A DNA stretch of 64,000 nt. Source: an uncultured Actinomycetes bacterium (GTDB lineage: Bacteria > Actinomycetota > UBA4738 > JBBDHU01). This document shows, piece after piece, positions 20,782-38,580 of the stretch. Made by a program: the position numbers and the translations under genes. Under the pieces are notes generated by a model that was not told the DNA's origin, made no database searches, and worked only from the letters and a program-made list of their open reading frames with translations. How positions within the stretch are numbered: position 1 is the stretch's first letter; every line of letters begins with the position of its first letter. The stretch is from NCBI GenBank assembly GCA_964640385.1, contig CAZXFL010000003.1:100725-164724 (forward strand). Reading direction: 5' to 3'.

Positions 20782-20795
20782 GAAGGAGGTATCCG

Positions 20796-21719: not shown

Positions 21720-22744
21720 AGCTGGCGGAGGCCCTTGACGTCGCCGCGGCCCCACGTCCGGTAGGTCTTGGAGCACTCCGGCAGCCCGAAGATGCTCATC
21801 GTGAGGTTCCCGTGCGCGGCACCTACGTGGGCGATCCCGAACGTGTGCCCGCGTTCGTGGGTCGCGATCCCCTGAAGGTCGTACGCGTTGTTGCAGCCGT
21901 TGCCGATGTCGATCGTCCAGTTGCTGTTGTCGTCGATCCGGATGTCGGCCTCGACCAGATCATCGATCCCGCTCGCGGTCATCGACCACGAGCAGTTGAT
22001 GGCCGCGGCCGGAGCCTGGAGCGAGCCGAAGTCCATGACGCTGGTGCCGTCGTTGTTCAGGCAGTTCAGGTTCTGGCTGATGTTCGCCCCCTCGGTCGTG
22101 TCTCCGAGGTAGTTCGTCGAGAGGCTGACGCGGTCGGGCATCCCGCAGCTGTTCTTCTGGTTCGCCACGTTGGCGGTGGCCGAGACGACCGCGGCTTCGG
22201 CCTGGACGGCCGTCAGGTTCCCCGGCGTCGTGCCCATGTTGAAATACCAATCGAAGGTTTCCGACGGTGGGAGCGCGTACCCTTCGAGCGAGTACGTCTT
22301 GTCGTTGCAGGCCTTCGGGCACGACTTGCAGGGCGTGCCCCCCGAACCCGTCGCGGCCGTCGCGACGATACCCGCCTGCGCATCGTCGCCGACGTCATCG
22401 AGCGTGATGCTTCCGTCGGCGTTGGACGTGATCGTTAGGGTCTGGATGCCGCCGGGAAGTTCCGCCGAAGCCGTCACGCCCATGCTCGCCGCCGGCACCG
22501 TCGCGCCGACGCCGTGATCGGTCAGGGTGCGGCCGCGCAGGTCGCAGGCCGTTCGGGCCACCTTCCCGGGGAGGACGCCGGCGTCCAGGGGGCCCGCCAC
22601 GCGGCAGGCGGCCAGCTCGGCCGCCCCGCCCGAAGCCCCGAGGGCCGGGAGCCCCGGGGCCAGCACCACGAGCGTGGTGACCAGCGAGAACAGCAGGACC
22701 GGCACCAGGAGCCGGGCGCGTTCGATGGATGTCTGTGTGGTCAT
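21713..22744 (-). CDS. secreted zinc metalloprotease (metzincin, HExxHxxGxxH)
   Basis: Signal peptide (LLVPVLLFSLVTTLVVLAPGLPALGA). Zinc-binding motif HERGHTFGIAHVG. Many Cys residues. Convergent with the tad locus. Confidence 0.75.
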   Translation of the reverse strand: MTTQTSIERARLLVPVLLFSLVTTLVVLAPGLPALGASGGAAELAACRVAGPLDAGVLPGKVARTACDLRGRTLTDHGVGATVPAASMGVTASAELPGGIQTLTITSNADGSITLDDVGDDAQAGIVATAATGSGGTPCKSCPKACNDKTYSLEGYALPPSETFDWYFNMGTTPGNLTAVQAEAAVVSATANVANQKNSCGMPDRVSLSTNYLGDTTEGANISQNLNCLNNDGTSVMDFGSLQAPAAAINCSWSMTASGIDDLVEADIRIDDNSNWTIDIGNGCNNAYDLQGIATHERGHTFGIAHVGAAHGNLTMSIFGLPECSKTYRTWGRGDVKGLRQLY

Positions 22745-22892
22745 GTCGTCGGTTGCCTCTCCCCTTGGATATCGGTCCCGGACCGGACGCCTTGAGCCTG
22801 AGGGCGCCCGCTCGCCGGATGGGGATATCCCGAACCCCCATCCGTCGCGAGGCCTCACCGGATCGCGCGCCCGGGTGTACGATGCCTCCACC

Positions 22893-23282
22893 ATGGCGGG
22901 GCTCGTCGCGAGGAAGAAGAAGCAACCGCTCGGCGTGATCGACTACACGCTCGCGAAACGGGCGCTCCTTCGGCGCGCGCGCGTCGGGATGCTCTCGACC
23001 TTCGAGATCTGCGATGCGCATCCCGAGCTGATGCGCGCGGCCAAACATGTCGGCGAACCCGCCTCTCGAGACTGCCCGGTCTGTCGCCGTCACGAGCTGC
23101 GGTTGCTGGCCTACGTCTACGCCGACGGGCTCAAGCAGAACAGCGGCCGGGTGTGGGCGCTTGACACGGCATTGCTCATGACCGCGAAGTACCACGGCGC
23201 CTCGTGCTACGTGGTCGAGGTCTGCACGTCCTGCCAGTGGAACCACCTGTCCGAGGCGTTCGTGGCCCGCACGGCCGGCTGA
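22893..23282 (+). CDS. DUF5318-like conserved actinobacterial protein
   Basis: CxxC...CxxC protein (RDCPVCRRHE...VCTSCQWNH) located immediately upstream of a class A PBP, as is typical for this family. Confidence 0.55.
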   Translation: MAGLVARKKKQPLGVIDYTLAKRALLRRARVGMLSTFEICDAHPELMRAAKHVGEPASRDCPVCRRHELRLLAYVYADGLKQNSGRVWALDTALLMTAKYHGASCYVVEVCTSCQWNHLSEAFVARTAG

Positions 23283-23393: not shown

Positions 23394-25631
<2,238 letters not shown>

Positions 25632-25634
25632 CCG

Positions 25635-27743
25635 CTAGTTCGTCGCCAGCTCCCGGGGGGTCGGGACCATGTCCAGCGGCAGCGTCGCCACGATCGTGGT
25701 GCCCGATCCGGGGCTGGAGCGGACGACGAACGTGCCGCTGGCCAGTTCGATCCGCTCGCGCATCGAGGCCAGCCCGACCTTGCCGGCCCGCAGGAAATCG
25801 CGCGCCTGGTTCGGGTCGAAGCCGATGCCATCGTCACCGATCTCGAGCTTGAGCTGACCGGCGACGGCGTCGACCGTGACCGTTACCTCCGAGGCGTGCG
25901 AGTGTTTGCGGGCGTTGGTGAGCGCCTCCTGCACCAACCGGTAGGCGAGCGTCTCGAGGTCGGACGGCACCTCGACCAGCGACCGGCTGCGGAACTGTGT
26001 CTGCACCTCGTCGTCGCGCCCGAACCGAGCCAGCGTCTCCTGCAGCGCCGGGACCAGGCCGCGCTCCTCGAGCAGCGGCGGCCGCAGGTTCCCCATCAGG
26101 CGCCGCAGGTTGTCGGCTTCCTCGGAGAGCTGCCCCCGGATCTTCATCAGCGTCTCGATCGCGCGCTCCGTGTCCCCGGATTTGAGCATCAGCAGGACGG
26201 CCTCGAGTGAGAGCGTGGCGGCGGAGACGCCCTGGACCGGCCCGTCGTGAAGGTCCCGCGCCACTCGGTTGCGTTCCGCCTCGATCGCGGCGTTCGTCCG
26301 CTTGAGCAGCCGGGTCCGGTCCTCGTCGCGATCCTGGAGGAACTGGAAGAGGGAACGGATCGTCTGGTCCGCCACCTTGGCGGCCGTCGCATCGCGGACC
26401 AACAGCAAGGTGCCGGGCGGGTTGCCGGGGATCTTGGAGGTGCGCGCTTCGAGGAACACCTCGTGTCCCTGGCGATCGAGCGCCGCCTGCCCGGTCACCA
26501 GCAGGGACGCGATCGAGGCTCCTCCCGGAGCGGACGCGGCGACCCGGTCCCACGGCTTGCCTACGACGAACGCCCGCTCCAGCCCGACCATCTCGCAGAA
26601 CGCTCCGTTCGCCTGGCGCACCACGTCGTCGGGGTCGAGCTCGACGATCCCGTCGACCGCGGCGTCGAAGAGGAGCCGCAGCCGTTCCTCGGACTCGGCC
26701 AGCGTGCCCATCGCGCGCTGCAGCTGCTCCATCGCGTGGTCGGTCTCGTGGAGGGCTGCTTCGCGTTCCGCGAGCGCCTCGTGTGCGGCCTCGGTGGCCG
26801 CGGTGCTGCGCACCTGGTTCACCAGGATGCGGGCGGCGATGGCTCCTCCGAGGAGAGCGATCAGGATGGCGCCCTCCCGCAGACTCGCGCTGCCCCGAAC
26901 CTGCAGCGCGGCAACGATCCCGAGGCTCCCGGCCGCGGATGCGACCGCGATCGTCGTCAGGACCGGGCGCCCCCAGCCCGCGCTCGTCACCTGTCGGGCA
27001 TGCTCCTCGGGCCGGACGACCATGAGCCCGGCGAGGACGAGCGCGGCGAGTCCGAGGGGGATGTCCAGGGCGGGAAGGCCCCACGCATCGATCCCACGCA
27101 CCCACAGGCTCCCGACGGTCAGGGTGGCACCGGCGAAGACCCCGACAACCGAGAGCTGGCCGAAGTGCGACGGGGAGGGGACCCAGAGCGTGAGCGCGAT
27201 GAACGAGGTGATGGCGACCGCCGCGGTCGCCGCGAACAGGGCGCTCCACAGGAGCGCTGCGAGCTCCTGGTTCGCACCCTCCGGTCGGATCAGCAGGTAG
27301 ACGACGCTGATCATCGCCGTCGCGATCAAGGCGACGTCGGCGGAGATCTCACGCCGGTCCTCCCGGACGAAATGGTCCCGGAACTGCACCCGGGCCGGGA
27401 AGATCAAGATCGCGCCGATGACCAGGAAGAGCAGGTCCGAGGTGCCGCCCGCGCGTCCCGTGCCTTTGCCGAGGTCGTTCCAGAGCTCGATCGCCTTGGC
27501 CAGGGCCATGACTCCCATCGCCACCCCGAACGGGAGGGTCCCCTCCCACGCCTTCGGCATCCGCGCGCGCCTGAGGATGACGGCGGTCGAGAGCGCCGCA
27601 ACGCCGAACAGGGCCACATCCGAGACCAGCTTTCGAACGCCCGGGTCATCGGGCGCAAGGACGTACGTCAGGACGAACACGCTCCCTGCAAGTGCGAGCG
27701 GGATGATCTCACGTCGGGCGTTCTTCGTGCCTGGATGCGCCAT
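25635..27743 (-). CDS. multi-pass membrane sensor histidine kinase (polytopic sensor domain + PAS + HisKA_3 + HATPase_c)
   Basis: About 300-aa N-terminal region with multiple TM helices. PAS (FDAAVDGIVELDPDDVVRQANGAFCEMVGL). H-box RNRVARDLHDGPVQ. HATPase N-box LVQEALTNARKHSHA and G-box DDGIGFD. Confidence 0.85.
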   Translation of the reverse strand: MAHPGTKNARREIIPLALAGSVFVLTYVLAPDDPGVRKLVSDVALFGVAALSTAVILRRARMPKAWEGTLPFGVAMGVMALAKAIELWNDLGKGTGRAGGTSDLLFLVIGAILIFPARVQFRDHFVREDRREISADVALIATAMISVVYLLIRPEGANQELAALLWSALFAATAAVAITSFIALTLWVPSPSHFGQLSVVGVFAGATLTVGSLWVRGIDAWGLPALDIPLGLAALVLAGLMVVRPEEHARQVTSAGWGRPVLTTIAVASAAGSLGIVAALQVRGSASLREGAILIALLGGAIAARILVNQVRSTAATEAAHEALAEREAALHETDHAMEQLQRAMGTLAESEERLRLLFDAAVDGIVELDPDDVVRQANGAFCEMVGLERAFVVGKPWDRVAASAPGGASIASLLVTGQAALDRQGHEVFLEARTSKIPGNPPGTLLLVRDATAAKVADQTIRSLFQFLQDRDEDRTRLLKRTNAAIEAERNRVARDLHDGPVQGVSAATLSLEAVLLMLKSGDTERAIETLMKIRGQLSEEADNLRRLMGNLRPPLLEERGLVPALQETLARFGRDDEVQTQFRSRSLVEVPSDLETLAYRLVQEALTNARKHSHASEVTVTVDAVAGQLKLEIGDDGIGFDPNQARDFLRAGKVGLASMRERIELASGTFVVRSSPGSGTTIVATLPLDMVPTPRELATN

Positions 27744-27892
27744 CTAGCCCACTACTATGCAGGGAGAACGTCCGTTGTCCAATCGGCCGGATGGGGAAGG
27801 CCCGCAGGGGTGTCCGGGGGATATCCACTAGTCATTTCAGACTAGGGCTTCAGGCCCAAGGTCGAGTACATCCGGGCATGGGCGCGGTCGAC

Positions 27893-28573
27893 TCACTCGA
27901 TGAGCCGGCGGCGCAGGGCCTCTGCGACGGCCGCGGTCCGGTCCGAGGCGCCGAGCTTCTCGAAGATGTGCTCGAGGTGGGTCTTGACCGTGTCCGGAGA
28001 GATGAAGAGCTTCTCGGCGATGTCCTTGTTCGTGTGACCGAACGCGAGGAGCTGCAGCACTTCGATCTCCCGCGCCGTCATTGTGTCCGCCTTGCGGTCG
28101 CGTTCCTTCGCATCGGAGAGCTCCTCGGCCAGGGCGACCACCAGCTGCGGATCGATGACCATGTTGCCGCTGGCGACCAGACGAACCGTCTGGATCAGGT
28201 GCTCGGCGTCCCGCGCCTTCAGCACGTAGCCGCGCGCGCCCGCACGGACGGCTTCGACGACGAACTGCCGGTCGTCGTAGGCGGAGAGCATGATGACGTT
28301 GACCTCCGGGTGGTTGGCCCGGATCTCGCGAGCGGCCTCCAGGCCGTCCATCTCCGGCATCCGGATGTCCACGAGCGCGATCTGCGGCTTGGTCTGGTCC
28401 AGGACCTCGAGCAGCTCCCGGCCGTTGGCCGCTTCGCCGACCACCTCGATGCCGTCGGCGGTCTCCAAGTAGCGCCGCAGCCCTTGGCGGACCAGGGAGT
28501 GGTCATCGGCGATGGCCACCCGTACCGTCTTGTCGCTCTCGTCCGCCACGGTCTTGTCGCTATCGTCCGCCAC
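27893..28573 (-). CDS. two-component response regulator, NarL/LuxR family
   Basis: REC domain (VRVAIADDHSLVRQG...ALVDIRMPEMDG) and a LuxR-type HTH (LTAREIEVLQLLAFGHTNKDIAEKLFISPDTVKTHLEHIFEKLG). Confidence 0.9.
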   Translation of the reverse strand: MADDSDKTVADESDKTVRVAIADDHSLVRQGLRRYLETADGIEVVGEAANGRELLEVLDQTKPQIALVDIRMPEMDGLEAAREIRANHPEVNVIMLSAYDDRQFVVEAVRAGARGYVLKARDAEHLIQTVRLVASGNMVIDPQLVVALAEELSDAKERDRKADTMTAREIEVLQLLAFGHTNKDIAEKLFISPDTVKTHLEHIFEKLGASDRTAAVAEALRRRLIE

Positions 28574-28580
28574 GGTGCTC
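28531..28580. repeat. 24-bp tandem duplication inside the response-regulator 5' end
   Basis: gtcttgtcgctctcgtccgccacg / gtcttgtcgctatcgtccgccacg encodes DDSDKTVA-DESDKTVR. Confidence 0.7.
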
Positions 28581-28620
28581 CCCTCCGGATCAGGTCCCCC
28601 GATTCTAGTCGGGTCGCCCC

Positions 28621-29781
28621 TCAGAAGATGAAATGGGCGTTCACGAACAGCACGGTGAGCACGCCCAGGCCTGCGGCCGAGACGCCCACGATCAGCGTAT
28701 GCCGGAGCCGGCGGCGGTCGGCGAGTTCGGCCAGCGCCCAGAAGATCGGGAACAGCGGCAGGATGAAGCGGGGCATCGACATCAGGGGCCGGTCCGGCCA
28801 GATGAGGCTCAGTGGCGCCAGGATCCCCAGCCAGGTGAAGACGCTGAACGCGGGCCGGAACCGGATCACCCCGTAGGCGGCGGCGGCCAAGGCCGGGACT
28901 ACGATGAGCCAGTCGAGCAGGAGGTAGCCGCCGTCGCGGAACGCGCCGGTCGTGGCGGCCACCAGTGTGGCCGGTGGGAAGGCGGCCTCCCGGTCCCAGT
29001 TCGACTGGAACCGCAGCGGTGCCAGGGTGTCACCGGTCTTGGCCTGCCAGTACCAGAGGTAGGCGCCGAGACCGAGCGGCACGACTCCCGCCCACAGCAC
29101 CATCCACATGGATCCGCGCTTCTCACGCCACTGTTGGATCGCCTCGACCGCCAGAGCGGGCGCGAGGATCACCCCGACGCTCCGGGCCGCCGCCGCGAGC
29201 GCTCCCGAGGCCGCGGCCGCAGGCCATCGGGCTCGCCGCGCCGCCCAGAACGCCGTGACGGCGAGCAGCAGGAACAGCGATTCGCCGTACGGGGCGAGGA
29301 AGAAGAACGACGTCGGGAAGATGCTGATGTACAGGACGGCCTTGCGTGCCTTGGACTCCGAGAGTTCGGAGCGCGTCAGCAGGTAGAGCATGCACAGCGC
29401 TCCGAGGAAGGCGAGGTTCGAAACCAGGAACCCGGCGGCGAGGGGACGGCCGCCCAGCACCCACGATGTTCCCCGCACCGCAAGCGGGAACAGCGGGAAG
29501 AACGCGGCGCTGCCGTCGTCGGTCCGGTAGCCGCCGTCGGCGATGCGCAGGTACCACAGCGCGTCCTGCTCCTCGAACGACGTGACCACGTTGTGGAGCC
29601 CCGGGGTGTTCGTGTCGTCGGGCCAGCCCGGCGCCGAGACCGCGGCGCGATCGGGCAGCAGCCCCGTTGCGACGTAGCCGAGGATGAGCAGCCCGATGCG
29701 CACCGCGAGGAACACCCTGATGCAATACAGGAGTCCGGCGCGGGTCTCGGGGTCGATCCGTCGGCGCCTCGCGTCCGTCAT
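28621..29781 (-). CDS. polytopic membrane protein, GT-C-fold glycosyltransferase-like (PIG-V/mannosyltransferase-like)
   Basis: About 10 predicted TM segments. Its ATG overlaps the upstream GT87 stop (ATGA). The family assignment is tentative. Confidence 0.55.
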   Translation of the reverse strand: MTDARRRRIDPETRAGLLYCIRVFLAVRIGLLILGYVATGLLPDRAAVSAPGWPDDTNTPGLHNVVTSFEEQDALWYLRIADGGYRTDDGSAAFFPLFPLAVRGTSWVLGGRPLAAGFLVSNLAFLGALCMLYLLTRSELSESKARKAVLYISIFPTSFFFLAPYGESLFLLLAVTAFWAARRARWPAAAASGALAAAARSVGVILAPALAVEAIQQWREKRGSMWMVLWAGVVPLGLGAYLWYWQAKTGDTLAPLRFQSNWDREAAFPPATLVAATTGAFRDGGYLLLDWLIVVPALAAAAYGVIRFRPAFSVFTWLGILAPLSLIWPDRPLMSMPRFILPLFPIFWALAELADRRRLRHTLIVGVSAAGLGVLTVLFVNAHFIF

Positions 29782-31043
29782 GGTGCCACCTCCTGGAGCG
29801 GCGGGAAGGGCTCCGCTGCGTCGTTATCGTTGAGGAGCGGCTCGTCCTGCCGGACCCACGCGATGACGCAGGCGACCAGGATCGCCGCCCGGACGACGAC
29901 AGCGATCTCGAACGCGCCGAAGCCCACGTGTTCGGCGAAGCCGCCGGTGTCCGTGAAGTTGCCGAACCACCAGAACCGCGTCGCGAAGACGGCGATGTCC
30001 GCTGCCTCGAACAGCGCGAACAGCCGCCAGTTGGGTAATGCCAGCGCGAACCACGGCAGCAGCCAGAGTCCGTACTGCGGCGAGTACACCTTGTTGGTCA
30101 GCAGGAACAGCACGATCAACGGGAAGCCCAGCGTCCATTGGGGGAAGTCGGGGAAGCGGCGCGCGCGCAGGTGCCAGACGAGCGCGGACAGGCCGACGAA
30201 CAGGAGCGCCGACCCGAGGTTCACCAACGGCGTCATCCTCTCAGGACACGAGAGGTCCCCGGTGATCCGATGGCACCCGATGAACCACAGGCTGTCCCAG
30301 TCGGGCTGGCGCCCGGAGTTGAAGCTGAAGAAGCGGAGCCATCCGGACGTCGCCAGCAGCGCGAACGGGACGTTGAGCAGGAGCCAAGCGCCCGCCGCTC
30401 CCCACGCGAGGTGGATCCCGCCGTCGGGGTCCTTGCGGCGGAAGCGTCCTGCCACGAAGGGGACGACGAGCAGCAGCGGGTATAGCTTCGCGGCGCCGCC
30501 GAGACCGAGCATCACGCCCGACCAGGCATCGCGGCGCCGCAGGTACAGCAGGGTGCCGACCGCGGCGAACGCGACCGCGATCAGGTCCCAGTTCGTGAAC
30601 GCGTAGATCGCGAGCGTCGGTGCCAGCGCGAAGAACAGGGCGCGCCGGCCGACGGCCATGTACAGGGCGACGGCGGTCACGACGGCTGCCGCAGCCAGCA
30701 GGAACGCGTTGAACGCGAAGAAGGAGAGGGCGTCGTCCGCCGGCCAGGCGGCCACGCGCATCACCCACATCGTCAGGACCGGGTACTCGTCGCACTGGCC
30801 TTCGCCCGCCGGACATGGCTCCAGGAAGGGGAGGCGTCCGCCCTCGAGGTGCTCGGTGCCGTAGAGGGGGACGAGGTCCGTGTAGCACAGGAGCCGGTAC
30901 TGTCGGCCGTCGCTCCAGTTCCCCGATGCGCACGGCGCCTTCATGACCAGGCCGACGGCCAGCGTTCCGAACAGGGCAAGCAGGATGAGCGTCAGCGAGG
31001 TCGTGCGGGCGGCGGGAGCGCCTCGGTCGGGCGCTCCGGTCAT
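29778..31043 (-). CDS. GT87/DUF2029-family polyprenol-phosphate-sugar-dependent glycosyltransferase (MptA/MptB/PimE-like)
   Basis: Polytopic membrane protein with the DUF2029 signature GGAAKLYPLLLVVPF. Its start overlaps the upstream response-regulator stop (ATGA). The 633-aa ORF in the track is an over-extension. Confidence 0.65.
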   Translation of the reverse strand: MTGAPDRGAPAARTTSLTLILLALFGTLAVGLVMKAPCASGNWSDGRQYRLLCYTDLVPLYGTEHLEGGRLPFLEPCPAGEGQCDEYPVLTMWVMRVAAWPADDALSFFAFNAFLLAAAAVVTAVALYMAVGRRALFFALAPTLAIYAFTNWDLIAVAFAAVGTLLYLRRRDAWSGVMLGLGGAAKLYPLLLVVPFVAGRFRRKDPDGGIHLAWGAAGAWLLLNVPFALLATSGWLRFFSFNSGRQPDWDSLWFIGCHRITGDLSCPERMTPLVNLGSALLFVGLSALVWHLRARRFPDFPQWTLGFPLIVLFLLTNKVYSPQYGLWLLPWFALALPNWRLFALFEAADIAVFATRFWWFGNFTDTGGFAEHVGFGAFEIAVVVRAAILVACVIAWVRQDEPLLNDNDAAEPFPPLQEVAP

Positions 31044-31720
31044 ACGGTGATCGCGCCGTTCTTGACGGCGAGCGCGACGGCTTCCAGCTTCGAGTGCACG
31101 TCGAGCTTGGCCAGGATGTTGCGGATGTGGGTCTGGACCGTCTGCGGGCTGATCTTGAGCCGCCGGGCGATGGCGTCGTTGCGGGCGCCGGCGGCAAGGC
31201 GTTGGAGGATCTCGAATTCGCGGTCGGTGAGGGTGCTCAGGCGCTGGGTCGCGTCTCGCCGGGCCTGGCGCTGGCCGGCCACCTGATGCAGCAGGCGGGT
31301 CAGCGTCGACGGGTCGATCAGGACCTCGCCGTCGGCCGCGGCTTTGATCGCGGAGAGCACGTCGGCGGCGGCCTCGGTCTTGGTCATGAATCCTGAGGCG
31401 CCGGCTTCGACCGCCTCGAGCATGAGGCCCTCGTCCTCGTGGGCGGTCATGATGATGACCTTGGTCTCGGGTGACGCGGTCTTGATCCGGCGCGTCGCCT
31501 CGATCCCGTTCATCGCTCCGCGGAACTTCACGTCCATCAGCACCACGTCCGGGTGGTGCTCGCCCGAAAGGCGGACGGCCTCGTCGGGGGTGTGGACCGG
31601 ACGTGCCGGCATCTCCAGGGCCGGGTCTCGGTCGATGACCATGGCGAGCGCGTCCGTAAGGATCTTGTGGTCGTCGCACACGAGCAGGATGATCGGCCGC
31701 GCGGGCGCTTGCGGTACCAC
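31040..31720 (-). CDS. two-component response regulator, NarL/LuxR family
   Basis: REC (IILLVCDDHKIL...VVLMDVKFRGAMNG) and LuxR HTH (LTDREFEILQRLAAGARNDAIARRLKISPQTVQTHIRNILAKL). GTG start overlaps the kinase's TAG stop by 1 nt. Confidence 0.85.
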   Translation of the reverse strand: MVPQAPARPIILLVCDDHKILTDALAMVIDRDPALEMPARPVHTPDEAVRLSGEHHPDVVLMDVKFRGAMNGIEATRRIKTASPETKVIIMTAHEDEGLMLEAVEAGASGFMTKTEAAADVLSAIKAAADGEVLIDPSTLTRLLHQVAGQRQARRDATQRLSTLTDREFEILQRLAAGARNDAIARRLKISPQTVQTHIRNILAKLDVHSKLEAVALAVKNGAITV

Positions 31721-32414
31721 TATCGGTCTCCCTCCAGGGGCAGCGTGAACGCGAGCATCGTACCGCTCTCCGGATGCGCCTCCATGCGCAACGTGCCCCC
31801 CTGGGCGGTGACGTGCGCGCGCGCGAGGTAGAGCCCGAGCCCGGCCCCGCGGACCTCTTCGTAGCCCCTCGGCCGCACGGTGGTGAACGGCTCGAACGCT
31901 CGCTCCATGTCTTCCGGCCACAGACCCGGACCCTCGCTCGTGACCTCGACGCCGACCCGTCCGTCGCCGTCGACGCCGGCGCGCAGCTCGATCGTCGAGT
32001 CGGCAGGCGAGTACCGTTCCGCGTTGTCGATCAGTTCCCCGATCACCGCTTTCGTCCACATCGGGTCGCACAGCGCGGTGAGGCCGGCTGCCACCTCAGC
32101 CTTCACGCGGTCATGCCCGGCCGCCGCCTCGTCGACGATCGTGTCGAGCTCGCTCGCGATGATCACGTAGTTGAGGTTTCCCGCCTCCAGCTCCATGAGC
32201 AGGTAGGTCCGCTCGACGAGCCGGTCGAGCCGGTCCGATTCTTGGTCGATCAGCTGGAACAGTTCGCGGCGCTCGTCGTCGGAGAGTGAGTCGTACAGGC
32301 GGTTGCCCGTCGTTGCGAGGCCCTTGATCCCCATGAGCGGGTTCTTCAGTTCATGGGCGATCTGTGAGGCGAGGGTCGGTCCCGGCTCGGGCCGGGCGTG
32401 GTCTTCACTCACGA
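31720..32414 (-). CDS. histidine kinase (HisKA + HATPase_c), no membrane sensor domain
   Basis: H-box IAHELKNPLMGIKG. HATPase motifs (ELIDNAERYSP; GPGLWPEDMERAFEPF; GAGLGLYLARAHV). The ORF track's 5' extension would overlap panB, so a GTG start at 32414 is proposed. Confidence 0.65.
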
Positions 32415-32443
32415 TGGCTGTGAGTGTATGCCTCGGGGCTCCG

Positions 32444-33238
32444 CTACCGATAGGAGTGGTCGGCGTCCGGGAAGGTCCCCTGCTCGACGTCCCGCGCGAA
32501 GGCCGTGACCGCTCGGGTGATCTCTCCCGCGAGGTCGGCGTAGGGCCGGACGAACTTCGGCGGTGCCTGCTCGTCGTCCAGACCGAGCAGGTCGGTGAGG
32601 GCCAGCACCTGGCCGTCGGTGTGGGGACCGGCGCCGATGCCGATGGTCGGGATCGACACGGACTGCGTGATCTGCTTGCCCACGTCGATCGGAACGCCTT
32701 CGAGGACCAGCGCGAAGATCCCCGTCTTCTCCAGGGACAGCGCATCGTCCAGCAGGCGGGACGCGCCTTCCTCGCTGCGGCCCTGAACCCGGTAGCCACC
32801 CATGGCATGGATGGATTGTGGGGTCAGCCCGAGGTGGCCCATCACGGGGATGCCGCGTTCGGTCAGGGCCGAGGCGAGTTCTTGCATCGGGCCTTCGAAC
32901 TTGACCGCATGGGCCCCACCCTCCTTGATGAACCGGCCAGCGTTGTGGATCGCCTCATCCGTCGAGGCCTGATAGGACATGAACGGCATGTCCCCGACGA
33001 CAAGCGCGTTCCGGGCACCGCGCGTTACCGCACGCGTGTGGTGGAGCATCTCCTCCATAGTGACGGGCAGGGTGGTCTCATAACCCAGCACGGTGTTGGC
33101 GAGCGAATCCCCGATCAGCAGGACCGGGATCCCGGCCCGGTCGAGGAGCCTTCCGGTCGGGTAGTCGTAGGCGGTGAGCATGGGGAACCGCCTCCCGGCG
33201 GCCTTCCATGCGCGCAGATCGTGAACGGTGACGGTCAT
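32444..33238 (-). CDS. panB: 3-methyl-2-oxobutanoate hydroxymethyltransferase
   Basis: Full-length match to the PanB family (LTAYDYPTGRLLDRAGIPVLLIGDSLANTVLGYETTLPVTMEEM...GGAHAVKFEG). Confidence 0.9.
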   Translation of the reverse strand: MTVTVHDLRAWKAAGRRFPMLTAYDYPTGRLLDRAGIPVLLIGDSLANTVLGYETTLPVTMEEMLHHTRAVTRGARNALVVGDMPFMSYQASTDEAIHNAGRFIKEGGAHAVKFEGPMQELASALTERGIPVMGHLGLTPQSIHAMGGYRVQGRSEEGASRLLDDALSLEKTGIFALVLEGVPIDVGKQITQSVSIPTIGIGAGPHTDGQVLALTDLLGLDDEQAPPKFVRPYADLAGEITRAVTAFARDVEQGTFPDADHSYR

Positions 33239-33311
33239 GTCGGCTCGCGCCTCCTTATGGTCGAGTGCACGGCTCCCGTCAGTCTAGCGCGGGCCCGGGG
33301 AAGGGGATAGC

Positions 33312-33692: not shown

Positions 33693-33814
33693 GCCTCCTC
33701 CGTCGCACGGCGGTGGCGTTCGTGTCAGACCCCCCTGCTAGTCTCGCGCTTGTTACACTCTCTCGGTCCACTCCTGCTCCTTCGGGGGCCGCGTGAGACC
33801 AGAGGAGGTCGGAT

Positions 33815-34126
33815 TTGAGGGCATACGAGATCATGTTGATCCTGCCCGGTGACGCCGATGAGGCGGCCGCCGGCCAGGTCATCGACCGCATCACCCAGGT
33901 GCTCGGCGACCAGGGGTCCGTCGGCAAAGTCGACCAGTGGGGTCGCCGCCGGCTCGCCTACGAGATCGCCGGCAACACCGAGGGCTACTACGTGGTCGCC
34001 CGGTTCGAAGCCGATCCGACCGTGCTCAAGGAGCTGGACCGTACGCTCTCCCTCGCGGACCAGGTCATCAGGTTCAAAGTCATGGCGAAGGTCGCCGCGA
34101 AGGTAGCTTCCCCCTCCCCGTCATAG
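33815..34126 (+). CDS. rpsF: 30S ribosomal protein S6
   Basis: MRAYEIMLILPGD...RRLAYEI..GYYV. Confidence 0.9.
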   Translation: MRAYEIMLILPGDADEAAAGQVIDRITQVLGDQGSVGKVDQWGRRRLAYEIAGNTEGYYVVARFEADPTVLKELDRTLSLADQVIRFKVMAKVAAKVASPSPS

Positions 34127-34174
34127 GCCATCAGGAACGGGGAGCGGAGCAGCACAGAGAAGGTGGTGGTGGAG

Positions 34175-34654
34175 ATGGCCAGCGACAACCAGATCACGAT
34201 CGTGGGGAACCTGACCGACGATCCCGAACTCAAGTACACGCCCAACGGGGCGGCGGTTGCCAACTTCAGCGTGGCCGTCAGTCGCCGGGTCAAGGACGAG
34301 GTGAGCGGTCAGTGGACCGACGCCGATACGTCCTTCTTCCGGGTGAACTGCTGGCGGGCCCTGGCCGAGAACGCCGCCGAGTCGCTCACGCGGGGCACGC
34401 GGGTCGTCGTTTCCGGGCGGCTCAAGCAGCGCTCGTGGGAGACCCAGGAGGGCGATAAGCGCTCGGTCGTCGAGATCGAGGCCGATGAACTCGGACCCAG
34501 CCTCAAGTGGGCCACGGCCCGGGTGGAGAAGACGTCCCGCAGCGGCAGCAACAGTGCAGCCGGTGGCGGCGGTGGCGGCGGTGGCGGCGGTGACTGGTCG
34601 GCCGGTACGCCGATCGGTGCCGGAGTCGGAACAGAAGAGGAGCCTCCCGTCTGA
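34175..34654 (+). CDS. ssb: single-stranded DNA-binding protein
   Basis: OB-fold start [34 protein letters not shown]. Gly-rich linker and an acidic tail. Confidence 0.9.
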
Positions 34655-34929
34655 TGGCAGGAAAAACCAAGAAGCGGCCCGCTGGCAAGGGCAAGAAGGA
34701 ACGCGAAGAGAAGGCATGGAAGAAACAGAAGCGCAAGGTCTGCATCTTCTGCGTCGAGCGCATCGAGCTGGACTGGAAGGACATCAACCTGCTGCGCAAG
34801 TTCGCGTCCGACCGGGGCAAGATGCGCGCGCGCCGGGTCACCGGGAACTGCCGGCAGCACCAGATCGACGTGGCCATGGCGATCAAGAACGCTCGCGAGA
34901 TGGCCCTGATGCCTTACAGCTCCCGATGA
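34654..34929 (+). CDS. rpsR: 30S ribosomal protein S18
   Basis: [43 protein letters not shown]. Confidence 0.9.
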
Positions 34930-35381
34930 AGATCGTCCTGCAGAAGCCCGTCGAGAAGCTCGGCGTGCCCGGGGACGTCGTCGAGGTTAAGGATGGCTAT
35001 GCCCGCAACTTCCTGTTCCCCCGCGGGCTGGCCGTCCAGGCCTCCAAGGGCACTGTCCGCCACGCCGAGAGCCTCCGGGCGGCGCAGGACCGCCGGTCGA
35101 CCAAGTCCAAGGCCGCGGCCGAGGATCTGGCCGGCACCCTCAAGTCGCTGCCGATCCTGATCCGGATGAAGGCGGGCGAGGACGGGAAGCTGTTCGGCTC
35201 GGTCACCACGGCCGACATCGCCGCCGAGATCGAGGCTGCCGCTGCCGATGGGACCCCCATCGACAAACACTGGGTCCAGATCGACGAGCCCATCAGGTCA
35301 ACGGGTGCTCACCCCGTGACACTCAAGCTGCATCCCGAGGTCGAGGTCGAAGTGACCATCGAGGTGCAGGCCGAGGCCTAG
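34926..35381 (+). CDS. rplI: 50S ribosomal protein L9
   Basis: [40 protein letters not shown] overlap with the rpsR stop. Confidence 0.9.
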
Positions 35382-35901
35382 GCCCTAGCGGGGACGGGGT
35401 CCTCGTGCGCGCTGCTCGGATCCCTTCGCTCCCGCTCGGGACCTCGTCGACGCTCGCACGAGTCCCCGCCCCCTGCCGTCACCAGCCTGCGGGCGCACCC
35501 GTTCCGCACCGTGGCCTTGGGAGCCAGAACCTGTCCGTTCCTCCGGGAATCGATCCATGGCTGTAAGGCGCGGTCGGTCGCCTGCTTTCTGGCCGTGACG
35601 GGGTCGGTGAATGCCGCATCCCTGTCCGAGGACGTACACCTCGCCCGAACGGCAGGGTGCAGTTCCCATGGCCGGGCCTTCGTCCCGAAAATGTCAGTGG
35701 TGGGAATTACAATCGTGCCATTCGGTGTTATGCACCGTTTTCCACCGGTTGTCCCAACGCCAAAACCGCAGGTGGGTAAGGGAATGACAGGAAAGTTCGA
35801 GATGCGACCTGGGGAAAGAGTTCTCCACACCCGAATCCCCTCGCTTTCCCATTCCCAGGCGGGGGGCGCGGGGCCTACCCTGCGGGTTCCGTCGACGGGG
35901 G

Positions 35902-38580
35902 GTGTGGTGGTTGGCGCTGGTCGCTGAGGATCCCCGGCGGATCCGTCCAGATCGGATACCGCCACACAACCTGGACGCTGAGGAATCGGTCCTCGGCTCC
36001 ATGATGCTGTCCGGCGAAGCCATCGCTGACGTCGTGTCCCAGCTCAAGGCCGACGACTTCTACCGTTCGGCTAACGGCACCATCTTCAAGGCCATCCTGT
36101 CGATCTACGCCCACGGCTCGCCCGTCGACGCCATCACCGTCGTCGAGGAGCTGAAGCGCGGCGGAAACCTCGAGCAGATCGGGGGTCACCTCTACGTCCA
36201 CGAGCTGGTGCAGAACGTCGCGACCCCGGCCAGCGCGGCTCACTACGCGCGGATCGTCGGGGAACTGGCGCTCCTGCGGCGGATGATCGCGGCGGCCGGC
36301 AGGATCATGGAGCTCGGCTACTCCAACCCCCGCGACCCCGAACGCACAGCAGATGATGCCGAGGACCTCATCTACAAAGTCGCCCGCCACAGCGAGCAGG
36401 ACGAGGTCGTGTCGATGGCGGCGCTCGTCGATGGCGCCATCACCGAACTCGAGAAGTCCCAGCAGCACGATTCGCCGTTCGTCGGGGTCCCCACCGGCTT
36501 CACCGACCTGGACTCGCTGACCGCGGGCCTGCACCCGGGGAACCTGATCGTGATCGCCGCGCGTCCGGGCGTCGGGAAATCCTCCCTCGTGACCAATCTG
36601 GCGCGCAACGTGGCGGTCGCGGCCGGCACCTCCGTCGCCATGTTCTCGCTCGAGATGTCGCGCTGGGAGATCGGCATGCGTCTGCTCTGCGGCGAGGCGA
36701 GGGTCCCCTGGGACAACATCCGCGGCAAGCGGACGAGCCCCGACGACTGGGCCCGCATCGTGGAGGCCGCCGAAGTCCTGAACGAGGCTCCGCTGTTCGT
36801 GGTCGACTCGGGCAACATCAACATCGTGGACATCAGGGCGAAGGCCCGGCGGCTCCGGTCCAAGCCGGGCCTGGGCATGATCATCGTCGACTACCTCCAG
36901 CTCATGTCCTCGCCGGGCCGCGTCGAGTCGCGCCAGCAGGAGATCGCCGAGATCAGCCGGAACCTTAAGCTGCTGGCCAAGGAGATGGAGATCCCGGTCA
37001 TCGCGGTCTCCCAGCTCAACCGCGACCCGGAGCGCCGGCAGGACAAGCGGCCTCAACTCTCGGACCTGCGCGAATGCGTGACCGGCGACACGTTGGTATG
37101 CCTCGCCGACGGGAGCCGGGTTCCGATCCGCGGGTTGGTCGGCTCAACGCCCGAGGTCCTCGCCGTCTCGGCCGAAGGCCGTCTGGTCGTCGCCGGCAGC
37201 GACCGGGTGTGGTCGAAGGGGAACAAACCGGTTTTCGCGGTCCAGACCGCGACCGGACGGATGATGCGGGTGACCGCGCGTCACCGTGTGCTCACCGAAC
37301 GAGGGTGGACGCGGGTACACGACCTGGAGGTGGGTGACCGGCTGGCCCTCGCCCGCAAGATGCCCGAGCCCGCCAACCCGCTCCAGTGGCCGGACGACCA
37401 TGTGATGCTCCTCGCACACCTGATCGCCGCGGCGGATCTGTCGGGCCACCCCGTGGCCTACGGCACCCGCTTCGAGGAGAACGCCCGCGCGGTGACCGCA
37501 GCGGCGCGCCAGAGCTTCGACATCACACCGGAGTGGATCGAGGGCGAGCGGCACGCCGTGTCCTTCGACGGCACGGACCACCCGAACGCGTTCGACGACT
37601 GGTTGAACGGGCTCTCGCTCGCGGGGCGCCGGCGGCCGGAGCTGAGGGTTCCCGGTGACGTCTTCCGTCTGGCGGACGCGCAGATCGCGAGGTTCTTGCG
37701 GCACCTGTGGGCCGACGCGGGCGCCATCGCTCCCGGGGTGGTCGGCGGCGGGATGGCCGACATGTGGTTCTCCGCGACCGGGCGGGGGCTCGCCGAGGAC
37801 GTTGCTGCGCTGCTCTTGCGAGTGGGGGTCGTCGCCCAGCTTCACGACGCCTCGACCGGCGCGGCGGACCGATATGAGGTCGCGGTGGTCGGCGTCGACG
37901 AGCAGGCCCGGTTCCTCGAACGTGTCGGAGCGTTCGGGCCGCTGGTTCCGTCGGCCGAGCAGCTCGCGCTGGTGCTGACCAGCATGGCCGACGTCACGAT
38001 CAGCTCCCTGCCGCGTGAGGTCTTCGACGGCAACGGGAACGGTGCCCACGGCATCTCGTCCCGGATGACGGCGGCCCTGCGAGGGACGACGTCGGGCGGC
38101 GGGGACGCGGGTTCGACGGGCGAGGCGCGTCCGTGGCACCCGAGCCGGACGGGCAAGGCGGGGACCGGAGGCGGTGCCACCGGCGTCGATCCGGACGCAG
38201 CAGCGGACGAGTCGCCCGTTCCGACAGCCGGCGGGCGGGACCTGCTCTGGGACCCGGTCGTATCGGTGGTGATCGACGGCGAGGAGGAGGTCTTCGATCT
38301 CACCGTGCCGGGACCGGCTTCCTGGCTCGCGGACGGTGTCGTGAGCCACAACTCCGGTGCCATCGAGCAGGACGCCGACATCGTCATGTTCATCCACCGC
38401 GAGGATTCCGAGGATCCGCAGGTCAAGGGCACCGCCGACCTGATTATCGCCAAGCACCGCAACGGACCGACCGGCGTCGTGAAACTGACGTTCCTGCCGC
38501 AGCTGACGCAGTTCAAGAACTACGCGCCCCCACAGGCCGTCGGCAACTACCCGCCGCAGTCGCAGCCGACCGGTCCGTGA
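35902..38580 (+). CDS. dnaB: replicative DNA helicase DnaB containing a 426-aa intein
   Basis: N- and C-exteins align with DnaB (Walker A GVGKSS; ...QLSDLRE | SGAIEQDADIVMFIHRED...). The insert begins with Cys and ends with ...VVSHN followed by Ser. Confidence 0.9.
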   Translation: MWWLALVAEDPRRIRPDRIPPHNLDAEESVLGSMMLSGEAIADVVSQLKADDFYRSANGTIFKAILSIYAHGSPVDAITVVEELKRGGNLEQIGGHLYVHELVQNVATPASAAHYARIVGELALLRRMIAAAGRIMELGYSNPRDPERTADDAEDLIYKVARHSEQDEVVSMAALVDGAITELEKSQQHDSPFVGVPTGFTDLDSLTAGLHPGNLIVIAARPGVGKSSLVTNLARNVAVAAGTSVAMFSLEMSRWEIGMRLLCGEARVPWDNIRGKRTSPDDWARIVEAAEVLNEAPLFVVDSGNINIVDIRAKARRLRSKPGLGMIIVDYLQLMSSPGRVESRQQEIAEISRNLKLLAKEMEIPVIAVSQLNRDPERRQDKRPQLSDLRECVTGDTLVCLADGSRVPIRGLVGSTPEVLAVSAEGRLVVAGSDRVWSKGNKPVFAVQTATGRMMRVTARHRVLTERGWTRVHDLEVGDRLALARKMPEPANPLQWPDDHVMLLAHLIAAADLSGHPVAYGTRFEENARAVTAAARQSFDITPEWIEGERHAVSFDGTDHPNAFDDWLNGLSLAGRRRPELRVPGDVFRLADAQIARFLRHLWADAGAIAPGVVGGGMADMWFSATGRGLAEDVAALLLRVGVVAQLHDASTGAADRYEVAVVGVDEQARFLERVGAFGPLVPSAEQLALVLTSMADVTISSLPREVFDGNGNGAHGISSRMTAALRGTTSGGGDAGSTGEARPWHPSRTGKAGTGGGATGVDPDAAADESPVPTAGGRDLLWDPVVSVVIDGEEEVFDLTVPGPASWLADGVVSHNSGAIEQDADIVMFIHREDSEDPQVKGTADLIIAKHRNGPTGVVKLTFLPQLTQFKNYAPPQAVGNYPPQSQPTGP
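37075..38352 (+). other. DnaB intein (splicing domain plus LAGLIDADG-type homing-endonuclease remnant)
   Basis: Intein block A CVTGDTLV. C-terminal HN followed by the +1 Ser. Internal LAGLIDADG-like blocks (LLAHLIAAADLSG; FLRHLWADAGAI). Inserted in the conserved DnaB ATPase H4 site, as in known DnaB-b inteins. Confidence 0.85.

What the first reader, a model, noticed from the sequence alone, without database searches (positions are those of the whole stretch)
25635..32414. Co-directional, start/stop-coupled block: HK - RR - GT87 glycosyltransferase - second GT-C membrane protein - RR - multi-TM PAS histidine kinase
All six genes are on the minus strand in transcription order.
- Kinase (32414→31720): TAG/GTG overlap of 1 nt with the next gene.
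- NarL-type RR (31720→31040): ATGA overlap.
- DUF2029/GT87 glycosyltransferase (31043→29778): ATGA overlap.
- GT-C-like polytopic protein (29781→28621): 48-bp gap.
- NarL-type RR (28573→27893): 150-bp gap.
- Kinase with about 8 TM + PAS + HisKA_3 (27743→25635).

GT87 enzymes (MptA/MptB/PimE-like) build mannan and arabinomannan of the actinobacterial envelope. Translational coupling of such enzymes to a response regulator, sandwiched between two complete two-component systems, suggests a dedicated signal-controlled cell-envelope glycosylation module. I do not recognise this arrangement as a described system.
Basis: partly seen in the sequence, partly recalled or inferred. Interest (0 to 1): 0.65.

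Follow-up and report, generated by a model that had tools for sequence, protein, structure and literature searches.

The report
Glycosyltransferase pair flanked by two-component systems
The six genes are real, but they form three separate units in a core cell-wall region of an uncultured actinobacterial lineage, and only the two membrane glycosyltransferases, the second regulator-kinase pair and a neighbouring penicillin-binding protein stay together across relatives.

Summary
Six co-directional minus-strand genes lie at 25635-32412, with the stated domains and junctions; the coordinates need only small corrections.

- **Location.** The block sits in the conserved actinobacterial DUF5318-ponA1 ... 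rpsF-ssb-rpsR-rplI-dnaB region. Its GT87 gene is probably the positional counterpart of the ponA1-linked GT87 of Streptomyces (shown here) and of mycobacterial Rv0051 (from the literature).
- **Conserved core.** Among 51 related MAG loci, what persists is GT87 and the PIG-V-like gene (4-nt overlap in 33 of 43), then RR2, then HK2, then a convergent PBP1A.
- **Variable part.** HK1-RR1 is absent, or 3.5-9.5 kb away, in most relatives.
- **RR1/GT87 overlap.** No locus in the genome scan has it. Relatives carry a GC hairpin and a -10-like hexamer there. Only an 84%-identical relative shares the overlap.
- **Separate promoters.** RR2 and HK2 each have a conserved promoter-like element of their own.
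- **RR2 conservation.** RR2 has a median identity of 86%, higher than the neighbouring ribosomal proteins. That fits a core regulator better than a dedicated one.

Both membrane proteins model as GT-C folds. Regulation of glycosylation by either two-component system remains untested. Interest is moderate to low.

The parts
33281..33286 (-). -10-like hexamer TAGACT upstream of panB, followed by AAGGAGG 8 nt before the ATG. Probable promoter of the panB-HK1-RR1-GT87-PIGV transcript.
   Evidence: Read directly from the sequence. Function is inferred.
32444..33238 (-). panB (ketopantoate hydroxymethyltransferase), 31 nt upstream of HK1
   Evidence: Pfam Pantoate_transf 1.6e-109
31720..32412 (-). 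HK1: 230-aa soluble histidine kinase core (HisKA + HATPase_c) with no input domain and a GTG start
   Evidence: Short forms are also seen in panB-adjacent relatives; 480-490-aa forms occur elsewhere.
31040..31720 (-). RR1: NarL/FixJ-type response regulator, sharing 1 nt with the HK1 stop
   Evidence: Pfam Response_reg + GerE; junction read
29778..31043 (-). GT87-family GT-C glycosyltransferase, 421 aa; ATGA overlap with RR1
   Evidence: Pfam GT87. AF2 pLDDT 81.7. Foldseek hits to PIG-U, GPI-MT-I, ALG3, ArnT and PimE. Invariant D56, D153 and K186.
28621..29781 (-). PIG-V/Gpi18-like (GT76-like) GT-C glycosyltransferase, 386 aa; ATGA overlap with GT87
28602..28607 (-). -10-like hexamer TAGAAT, 16 nt after the PIG-V-like stop, followed by GGAGGGGAG before the RR2 GTG
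   Evidence: TA[GC][GAT]AT is present in 35 of 35 PIGV-RR2 spacers. Sequence read.
27893..28573 (-). RR2: NarL-type response regulator, median 86% identity across the lineage
27828..27845 (-). Inverted repeat CTAGTC-N6-GACTAG in the RR2-HK2 spacer
   Evidence: A CTAGTC-like word occurs in 25 of 35 spacers against a background of 0.11 per kb. Function unknown.
27754..27781 (-). Sigma-70-like promoter TGGACA-16-CATAGT, ending 10 nt before the HK2 ATG
   Evidence: The only promoter-like hit in 25300-33800
25635..27743 (-). HK2: about 9-10 TM segments + PAS + HisKA_3 + HATPase_c histidine kinase
23394..25631 (+). Class A PBP (transglycosylase + transpeptidase), convergent with HK2 at a 3-nt gap
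   Evidence: Pfam. Convergent PBP1A follows HK2 in 30 of 31 loci. Sequence read.
22527..23282 (+). ORF containing DUF5318, upstream of the PBP gene (the true start is probably later)
   Evidence: Pfam DUF5318 1.9e-34. Same position in L081.
33815..38580 (+). rpsF-ssb-rpsR-rplI and intein-containing dnaB: the conserved flank that identifies the locus
   Evidence: Pfam. Same set next to GT87 in the MAG and Streptomyces loci.

Best explanation
The interval is a mosaic of three units inside the conserved actinobacterial ponA1 / rpsF-ssb-rpsR-rplI-dnaB core region. It is not a single dedicated operon.

Unit A: panB-HK1-RR1. HK1 is a sensor-less HisKA kinase core and RR1 is its NarL/FixJ-type regulator.

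Unit B: the GT87 and PIG-V-like genes.
- Both model as GT-C folds. By analogy with that class they would use polyprenyl-phosphate-sugar donors.
- Their 4-nt overlap is conserved across the lineage.
- I infer that they act together on the outer face of the membrane, most likely transferring mannose to an envelope protein or lipoglycan. They may form a heteromer like the mycobacterial Pmt-Rv0051 pair.

Unit C: RR2 and HK2.
- Each has its own promoter-like element.
- They are conserved next to unit B and convergent with the class A PBP.

In this genome and one 84%-identical relative, the spacer between units A and B has been lost. In relatives that spacer carries a terminator-like GC hairpin and a -10-like hexamer placed as for a leaderless mRNA. 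Without it, the RR1 stop overlaps the GT87 start, and the glycosyltransferase pair is probably expressed from the panB promoter by read-through and translational coupling.

RR2-HK2 is probably a lineage-wide envelope or membrane-sensing system with a broad regulon that may include its neighbours.

Shown: gene content, folds, junctions, conservation statistics and promoter-like motifs. Inferred: transcription units, donor and acceptor, complex formation, and any regulatory link.
For: Gene calls and domains:
-.

Locus identity:
- DUF5318, PBP1A, panB, rpsF, ssb, rpsR, rplI and intein-containing dnaB are all in the window.
- Streptomyces has PBP1A>GT87>...rpsF>ssb>rpsR>rplI>dnaB in 23 or more loci.
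- ponA1-rv0051 is drawn as an operon in PMC2912383.
- Rv0051 is described as GT87-like and co-purified with Pmt in bioRxiv 10.64898/2026.07.15.738315.

Conservation in 51 MAG loci:
- PIG-V-like gene adjacent to GT87: 43 of 48.
- RR2 within 4 kb: 38 of 41.
- HK2 next after RR2: 31 of 34.
- Convergent PBP1A: 30 of 31.
- RR1 directly upstream of GT87: only 5 of 42.

Junctions:
- GT87/PIGV 4-nt overlap: 33 of 43.
- RR1/GT87 overlap: 0 of 15.
- RR2/HK2: never overlapping, gaps mostly 72-162 nt (two outliers, 256 and 433 nt).

Upstream of GT87 in relatives:
- A GATAAT/TACGAT hexamer lies 6-9 nt before the start codon, preceded by GCGGGGCCGCC-N8-GGCGGCCCCGC or by a divergent MerR gene.
- None of this is present in the window.
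- The overlap is shared with GCA_040960375.1.

Other evidence:
- Menaquinone genes lie between HK1-RR1 and GT87 in other loci.
- Promoter-like elements before RR2 and HK2.
- No terminator-like sites in the region.
- GT-C folds.
- Invariant acidic and basic residues sit at nearly the same residue numbers as PimE D58, D160 and K195.
- RR2 median identity is 86%, against 55-67% for RpsF, RpsR, RplI and SSB.
Against: - No expression data exist. All promoters, the hairpin-as-terminator reading and the leaderless reading come from sequence motifs alone.
- Regulation by either two-component system has not been tested. No shared operator was found between the GT87, RR2 and HK2 upstream regions, and GGGTGATGGAG occurs only before HK2.
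- The persistence of GT87-PIGV-RR2-HK2-PBP1A could partly reflect generally low rearrangement in this core region.
- Orthology to Rv0051 rests on position and family, not on a direct sequence comparison. The preprint describes the mycobacterial protein as lacking the conserved catalytic residues, whereas the homologue here keeps candidate catalytic residues.
- The 80 loci are the best-scoring of 591 confirmed matches, so the counts describe close relatives only.
Confidence: 0.6

Rival explanations
1. One reading: a single dedicated module in which the two two-component systems sense a signal and directly control the two glycosyltransferases through operon structure and translational coupling.
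For: - Co-directional array with overlaps from HK1 to the PIG-V-like gene, and no terminator-like sites.
- RR2-HK2 are conserved next to the GT pair.
- A NarL-type regulator also ends 9 nt before a distant GT87 homologue in L050, and another lies near GT87 in L052.
Against: - RR1/GT87 coupling: 0 of 15 relatives. HK1-RR1 adjacent to GT87: 5 of 42, and beside men genes elsewhere.
- Relatives carry a hairpin and a separate -10-like hexamer before GT87.
- RR2 and HK2 have their own promoter-like elements.
- RR2's 86% identity is unusual for a regulator of two accessory genes.
Confidence: 0.2
2. Neighbourhood by descent only. The two-component systems regulate unrelated processes and sit beside the glycosyltransferases and PBP1A only because this origin-proximal core region rarely rearranges.
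For: - The whole region consists of housekeeping genes with conserved order.
- No shared operator motif was found.
- Streptomyces has the PBP1A-GT87 pair without any two-component system.
Against: - The left border of the block is rearranged repeatedly: HK1-RR1, men genes, MerR and GT87 duplications come and go. GT87-PIGV-RR2-HK2-PBP1A nevertheless stays intact in about 30 species-level genomes, at 40-60% protein identity for the GTs, HK2 and PBP1A (86% for RR2).
- Insertions inside the block are rare.
Confidence: 0.25
3. The GT87 protein is a non-catalytic scaffold, as proposed for mycobacterial Rv0051, and the PIG-V-like protein is the only active enzyme of a heterodimer.
For: - The preprint reports that Rv0051 homologues lack catalytic residues, co-purify with Pmt and are modelled as pairing with it.
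- The best Foldseek matches of the GT87 model are PIG-U chains (8imx_U, 7w72_U), annotated only as chains of the GPI transamidase complex; that PIG-U is non-catalytic is background knowledge.
- The 4-nt overlap is conserved.
Against: - D56 (in CY[ST]D), D153 (in NWD) and K186 (in AAK[LF]YP) are conserved across the MAG-lineage and Streptomyces homologues aligned. They sit at almost the same residue numbers as the essential PimE residues D58, D160 and K195.
- Tandem GT87 duplications in 6 loci suggest enzymatic diversification.
Confidence: 0.2

Closest known systems
ponA1-Rv0051 locus of mycobacteria (MSMEG_6899, Cg3312) and the Pmt protein O-mannosylation complex
   Same: - A GT87-family polytopic protein is linked to the class A PBP gene, in the region that also holds rpsF-ssb-rpsR-rplI-dnaB and DUF5318.
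- In mycobacteria the GT87-like protein pairs with a second GT-C protein, Pmt. Here it is translationally coupled to a second GT-C protein.
   Different: - The partner here is PIG-V/GT76-like, not GT39.
- The gene is inverted relative to the PBP gene.
- The protein is shorter (421 aa) and keeps candidate catalytic residues.
- Two-component genes lie in between.
- No Pmt or Ppm1 gene is in the window.
- No direct sequence comparison with Rv0051 was possible.
PimE (GT87), polyprenyl-phosphate-mannose-dependent alpha-1,2-mannosyltransferase
   Same: - Same Pfam family and GT-C fold.
- Conserved Asp in the first outer loop, and a conserved Lys and Asp at similar residue numbers.
   Different: - No sequence-level match to PimE in the PDB, and only 14-17% identity in the structural alignment.
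- Different genomic context.
- The acceptor is unknown.
PIG-V / Gpi18 (GT76), GPI mannosyltransferase II
   Same: - Pfam Mannosyl_trans2 above the cut-off.
- Invariant E70, D73, W76, R79, A81, G84 and Y85 in the first outer loop.
- GT-C fold.
   Different: - Only HMM positions 59-215 of 443 are matched.
- The protein is bacterial, and no GPI pathway is evident.
- The best structural matches are ALG12, AglB, Pmt4 and ArnT.
PmrAB/PhoPQ control of ArnT (two-component control of a GT-C envelope-modifying enzyme in Gram-negative bacteria; from established knowledge)
   Different: - No regulatory link is demonstrated here.
- Different regulator family (NarL-type rather than OmpR-type), different enzymes and a different phylum.
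NarX/NarL-type (HisKA_3) and FixL/FixJ-type (HisKA with a GerE-type regulator) two-component systems
   Same: - HK2-RR2 has the HisKA_3 + GerE pairing. HK1-RR1 has the HisKA + GerE pairing.
- The phospho-acceptor His and Asp motifs are intact on inspection.
   Different: - No NCBIfam equivalog reaches its cut-off.
- HK1 lacks any sensor domain.
- RR2 and HK2 are separated by a conserved 70-160-nt spacer rather than being coupled.

Membership tests
GT87 (Pfam PF09594; PimE / Rv2181 / Rv0051 type) | Match to the family HMM above the curated cut-off | tested here: met
   44.1 bits against a cut-off of 25; residues 87-306. Relatives carry precomputed PF09594.
GT87 (Pfam PF09594; PimE / Rv2181 / Rv0051 type) | GT-C fold | tested here: met
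   AF2 model with pTM 0.86. Foldseek probability 1.0 to GPI-MT-I, ALG3, ArnT and PimE 9dm5.
GT87 (Pfam PF09594; PimE / Rv2181 / Rv0051 type) | Catalytic Asp at the tip of the first outer-loop helix, plus a phosphate-binding Lys (PimE D58, K195) | tested here: inconclusive
   D56 and K186 are invariant and D153 is conserved, including in Streptomyces homologues. Equivalence to the PimE residues is judged from residue numbers only, not from a residue-level superposition.
GT87 (Pfam PF09594; PimE / Rv2181 / Rv0051 type) | Polyprenyl-phosphate-mannose-dependent transferase activity | not testable with these tools
   Needs biochemistry.
Rv0051-type ponA1-linked GT87 (Pmt complex subunit) | Position next to the class A PBP gene in the rpsF-ssb-rpsR-rplI-dnaB region | tested here: met
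   Window. Streptomyces loci. Mycobacterial arrangement from PMC2912383.
Rv0051-type ponA1-linked GT87 (Pmt complex subunit) | Direct sequence orthology to Rv0051 / MSMEG_6899 | not tested
   No mycobacterial sequence was reachable, and the afdb50 library was unavailable.
Rv0051-type ponA1-linked GT87 (Pmt complex subunit) | Association with a GT39 Pmt | not testable with these tools
   No GT39 gene among the window genes scanned. The rest of the genome was not available.
GT76 / PIG-V (Pfam PF04188) | Match to the family HMM above the curated cut-off | tested here: met
   37.4 bits against a cut-off of 22.4, but only HMM positions 59-215 of 443 are matched. Nearly all of the 120 listed relatives (119 of 120) carry PF04188.
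GT76 / PIG-V (Pfam PF04188) | GT-C fold with a conserved acidic residue in the first outer loop | tested here: met
Two-component systems (both pairs) | Kinase DHp + CA domains; regulator receiver + output domains; phospho-acceptor motifs | tested here: met
   Pfam. H-box HELKNPL in HK1 and LHDGPVQ in HK2. Receiver DD...D...T/S...K seen in both regulators on inspection.
Two-component systems (both pairs) | Membership of a named, characterised system (NCBIfam equivalog) | tested here: not met
   Best scores are far below the cut-offs, for example MadR 181 against 300 and MctS 119 against 700.
   RR1/GT87 overlap 0 of 15. A -10-like hexamer before RR2 in 35 of 35 spacers. A conserved promoter-like element before HK2.

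The most novel reading that the evidence does not exclude
The GT87 and PIG-V-like proteins form an obligate heteromeric GT-C glycosyltransferase, a counterpart of the Pmt-Rv0051 pair built with a GT76-like catalytic partner. RR2-HK2 is an essential, lineage-wide system that senses the membrane or lipid-linked intermediates, and it coordinates this glycosylation with PBP1A-dependent peptidoglycan synthesis. GGGTGATGGAG would then be its autoregulatory operator.
Probability: 0.12. Interest if true: 0.6.

Novelty: new variant of a known kind. Interest (0 to 1): 0.33.

Why it matters
If the inferences hold, three points follow.

- The ponA1-linked GT87 gene, uncharacterised for two decades and only recently tied to protein O-mannosylation in mycobacteria, would have an older and more widespread form. 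In that form it is coupled to a second GT-C enzyme. This would support the idea that GT-C enzymes commonly work as heteromers.
- It would provide a well-defined cluster of envelope genes, conserved across the related MAGs sampled here, for an actinobacterial lineage that has no cultured member among the loci recovered here.
- It is a cautionary example. Start/stop overlap in one genome can come from a recent spacer deletion rather than from a conserved regulatory design.

Tried and rejected
- **PDB sequence searches.** Profiles of both membrane proteins found no meaningful hit.
- **Rfam.** A scan of the window and two loci found nothing in the block.
- **afdb50 fold search.** This was meant to test the Rv0051 link, but the library was unavailable.
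- **GGGTGATGGAG as a regulator operator shared by several promoters.** Rejected: it occurs exactly once per locus, only before HK2, and not in the window.
- **The same element as an N-terminal extension of HK2 or an upstream ORF.** Rejected: its frame relative to the HK2 start is not conserved.
- **The same element as an RNA hairpin.** Judged less likely than a promoter, because the spacing is fixed, the filler is variable, and A2, A5 and T6 of the downstream hexamer are invariant.
- **An apparent regulator-GT87 fusion in L050.** This was an artefact of my ORF extraction. The genes are separate, with a 9-nt gap.
- **Glycan-related genes between HK1-RR1 and GT87 in relatives.** The intervening genes are menaquinone genes and a MerR regulator.
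- **Pmt or Ppm1 in the window.** Neither was found.

Full report
**1. Observation**

The window is about 68% G+C. Six minus-strand ORFs occupy 25635-32412. An independent gene call on a public contig carrying the identical GT87 protein gives the same boundaries for the first five: HK1 230 aa, RR1 226, GT87 421, the PIG-V-like gene 386, and the start of RR2.

- HK1: HisKA + HATPase_c.
- RR1 and RR2: Response_reg + GerE.
- Third gene: GT87, 44 bits against a cut-off of 25.
- Fourth gene: Mannosyl_trans2/PIG-V, 37 bits against a cut-off of 22.
- HK2: PAS + HisKA_3 + HATPase_c, behind about 9-10 hydrophobic segments.

The junctions are as described:
- TAG/GTG sharing one base at 31720.
- ATGA at 31043-31040.
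- ATGA at 29781-29778.
- Gaps of 47 nt and 149 nt.

Corrections:
- The in-frame HK1 start is GTG at 32412, not 32414.
- HK1 has no input domain.
- HK1 starts 31 nt after the panB stop.
- HK2 ends 3 nt from the convergent stop of a class A PBP gene.

**2. Where the block sits**

The flanks are DUF5318 and a class A PBP on one side. On the other side are panB, a small membrane protein, rpsF-ssb-rpsR-rplI and an intein-containing dnaB. The rest of the window holds housekeeping genes: tad pilus genes, trpD, dcd, a UDP-glucose dehydrogenase, dnaK-grpE-dnaJ-clpB, purA and purD.

The exact proteins occur only in metagenome assemblies and MAGs labelled Actinomycetota bacterium.

A genome-collection scan with a GT87 profile returned 79 loci. 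About 50 are uncultured Actinomycetota MAGs at 45-64% identity. About 25 are Streptomyces and relatives at 35-40% identity.

In Streptomyces the order is PBP1A>GT87>(about 3 kb)>rpsF>ssb>rpsR>rplI>dnaB, with no two-component genes and no PIG-V-like gene. This is the arrangement described for mycobacterial ponA1-rv0051 (PMC2912383).

Rv0051 was long listed as an uncharacterised GT-C protein (PMC3229680). A 2026 preprint describes it as a GT87-like protein lacking the conserved catalytic residues; it was among the proteins most abundantly recovered with the GT39 protein O-mannosyltransferase Pmt in a pulldown and is modelled as pairing with Pmt.

The window's GT87 gene is therefore most likely the positional counterpart of that conserved ponA1-linked gene. 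This rests on position and family. I could not compare the sequences directly.

**3. What is conserved**

I anchored tblastn hits of the window proteins in 51 MAG-lineage loci:

| Feature | Count |
|---|---|
| PIG-V-like gene directly downstream of GT87 | 43 of 48 |
| RR2 within 4 kb | 38 of 41 |
| RR2 adjacent | 32 of 41 |
| HK2 next after RR2 | 31 of 34 |
| Convergent PBP1A after HK2 | 30 of 31 |
| RR1 directly upstream of GT87 | 5 of 42 |
| RR1 within 10 kb upstream | 11 of 31 |

Where HK1-RR1 lies about 7.5 kb away, the intervening genes are menE, menB, menD, menF, ubiE and a MerR regulator. HK1 in those loci is 480-490 aa rather than a 230-aa core.

Junction statistics:
- GT87/PIGV overlap by 4 nt in 33 of 43 loci.
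- HK1/RR1 overlap in 7 of 11 loci, and most of the rest abut within 7 nt.
- RR1/GT87 overlap in 0 of 15 loci. The gaps are 20-290 nt or 3.5-9.5 kb.
- RR2/HK2 never overlap. The gaps are mostly 72-162 nt (two outliers, 256 and 433 nt).

**4. The RR1/GT87 coupling is derived**

In relatives, the region upstream of GT87 carries a GATAAT- or TACGAT-type hexamer 6-9 nt before the start codon. That geometry fits a promoter for a leaderless mRNA.

In the panB- or RR1-adjacent loci this hexamer is preceded by a conserved GC hairpin, GCGGGGCCGCC-N8-GGCGGCCCCGC. The hairpin is an exact match in 8 loci. In other loci the hexamer is preceded by a divergent MerR gene with a CACTC-TAC-GAGTG palindrome.

The window has none of these elements. 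The only relative found to share the ATGA junction is the 84%-identical GCA_040960375.1.

The simplest reading is a recent deletion of the hairpin-plus-promoter spacer. That deletion would place GT87-PIGV under read-through from panB-HK1-RR1. Upstream of panB there is a TAGACT hexamer and a good ribosome-binding site.

**5. RR2 and HK2 have their own signals**

- Every PIGV-RR2 spacer (35 of 35) contains TA[GC][GAT]AT shortly after the PIG-V-like stop. In the window this is TAGAAT at 28607-28602, followed by GGAGGGGAG before the GTG.
- The only sigma-70-like promoter hit in 25300-33800 is TGGACA-16-CATAGT, ending 10 nt before the HK2 ATG. No intrinsic terminators are predicted.
- In 32 relatives the RR2-HK2 spacer is a composite element with fixed spacing: CTAGTC-like word, about 26 nt, GGGTGATGGAG, 18 variable nt, CAnnAT, 8-9 nt, start codon. 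The window keeps only the CTAGTC word, as an inverted repeat.

These are motif-level inferences. Taken together they argue against a single operon.

**6. Conservation of RR2**

RR2 has a median identity of 86% across the lineage. The comparison values are 55-67% for RpsF, RplI, RpsR and SSB, 68% for DnaB, 51% for HK2, 55% for GT87 and 50% for the PIG-V-like protein.

That level of constraint fits a core, pleiotropic regulator better than a regulator of two genes. No NCBIfam equivalog reaches its cut-off for any of the four signalling proteins.

**7. The two membrane proteins**

GT87:
- The AF2 model has pLDDT 81.7 and pTM 0.86.
- Foldseek matches it to PIG-U, GPI mannosyltransferase I, ALG3, ArnT and PimE.

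PIG-V-like protein:
- The AF2 model has pLDDT 85.6 and pTM 0.88.

Both are GT-C folds. Each has a positively charged N-terminus, then TM1, then a long first loop carrying invariant acidic residues:
- GT87: D56, E64, D85 and E86, plus four invariant cysteines.
- PIG-V-like: E70 and D73, in an E-x-x-D-A-L-W-x-L-R-I-A-x-x-G-Y motif.

In GT87, D56, D153 and K186 are conserved out to Streptomyces. They sit at nearly the same residue numbers as the essential PimE residues D58, D160 and K195. The protein is therefore probably active, unlike what is proposed for the mycobacterial protein. This equivalence is positional only.

Six loci carry tandem GT87 duplications.

**8. Mechanism, with status**

Shown:
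- Gene content, folds and junctions.
- The conserved five-gene core.
- The variable HK1-RR1 pair and the derived coupling.
- The promoter-like motifs.

Inferred:
- (a) GT87 and the PIG-V-like protein act together on the outer face of the membrane. They would use a polyprenyl-phosphate sugar, probably mannose, to modify an envelope protein or lipoglycan, possibly as a heteromer like Pmt-Rv0051.
- (b) In this genome the pair is expressed from the panB promoter together with HK1-RR1.
- (c) RR2-HK2 is an envelope or membrane-sensing system with a broad regulon that may include its neighbours and PBP1A.

Weak extra support for a link between a NarL-type regulator and GT87: a regulator of that type ends 9 nt before a distant GT87 homologue in L050, and another lies near GT87 in a Solirubrobacterales MAG.

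**9. Verdict**

The [quoted passage not shown] picture is specific to this genome and one near relative.

The arrangement is a new variant built from known parts. Its main value is the conserved GT87/GT76-like pair in the ponA1 locus and the unusually conserved RR2.

Caveats:
- There are no expression or biochemical data.
- The loci are the 80 best-scoring of 591 confirmed matches.
- Start codons in relatives were assigned by a crude rule.

Noticed in passing
L003-L059, RR2-HK2 spacers (for example L023 3735-3834); window 27828-27845: In 32 relatives the RR2-HK2 spacer holds an 11-nt word, GGGTGATGGAG, which occurs exactly once per locus. A CTAGTC-like word lies about 32 nt upstream of it in 25 of 35 spacers, and a CAnnAT hexamer lies a fixed 18 nt downstream, 8-9 nt before the HK2 start. 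The window and L007 lack the 11-mer. The factor that binds it is unknown.
   Followed up: partly
L005 9907-9936, L010, L011, L022, L027, L033, L046, L051: A sequence-conserved GC hairpin, GCGGGGCCGCC-N8-GGCGGCCCCGC, flanked by GGTGAC...TTCAC, lies about 100 nt upstream of GT87 in relatives. It is more conserved than expected for a plain terminator. It has no Rfam match and is absent from the window.
   Followed up: partly
L014, L017-L020, L023-L029, L032-L038, L045, L049, L059, upstream of GT87: In many relatives GT87 is preceded by a divergently transcribed MerR-family gene. A perfect CACTC-TAC-GAGTG palindrome lies between them, so a MerR-type regulator may control GT87-PIGV in those genomes.
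   Followed up: no
window 35902-38580 (+): dnaB carries an intein with a LAGLIDADG homing-endonuclease domain. L081 has the same insertion.
   Followed up: no
window 12016-12106 (-): A tRNA-Sec gene (Rfam RF01852, 78.8 bits) overlaps the 5' end of a 738-aa ORF (9871-12087) that has no Pfam match.
   Followed up: no
L007 11176-13218: In L007 a 680-aa protein with a spermine/spermidine-synthase-like domain is inserted between GT87 and the PIG-V-like gene, and its start overlaps the GT87 stop.
   Followed up: no
L003, L008, L010, L022, L033, L040: Tandem duplication of GT87 (GT87-GT87-PIGV). The two copies are each 47-61% identical to the window protein.
   Followed up: no
window 43773-44486 (-) and 15446-16573 (+): Two further soluble histidine kinases lie in the window: a 237-aa HisKA_3 + HATPase core, and a 375-aa PAS + HATPase protein. 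Sensor-less or cytoplasmic kinases seem common in this genome.
   Followed up: no
window 16771-21000 (+): A tad/Flp pilus gene set (CpaE/TadZ-like ATPase, TadA-type T2SSE ATPase, a T2SSF protein and a DUF4244 protein) lies upstream of an M10 metallopeptidase and the DUF5318-PBP1A pair.
   Followed up: no
L050 385-2373: In a distant relative (GT87 43% identical), a NarL-type regulator with a weak receiver domain (28 bits, below the cut-off) ends 9 nt before the GT87 start. This is an independent regulator-GT87 adjacency.
   Followed up: partly
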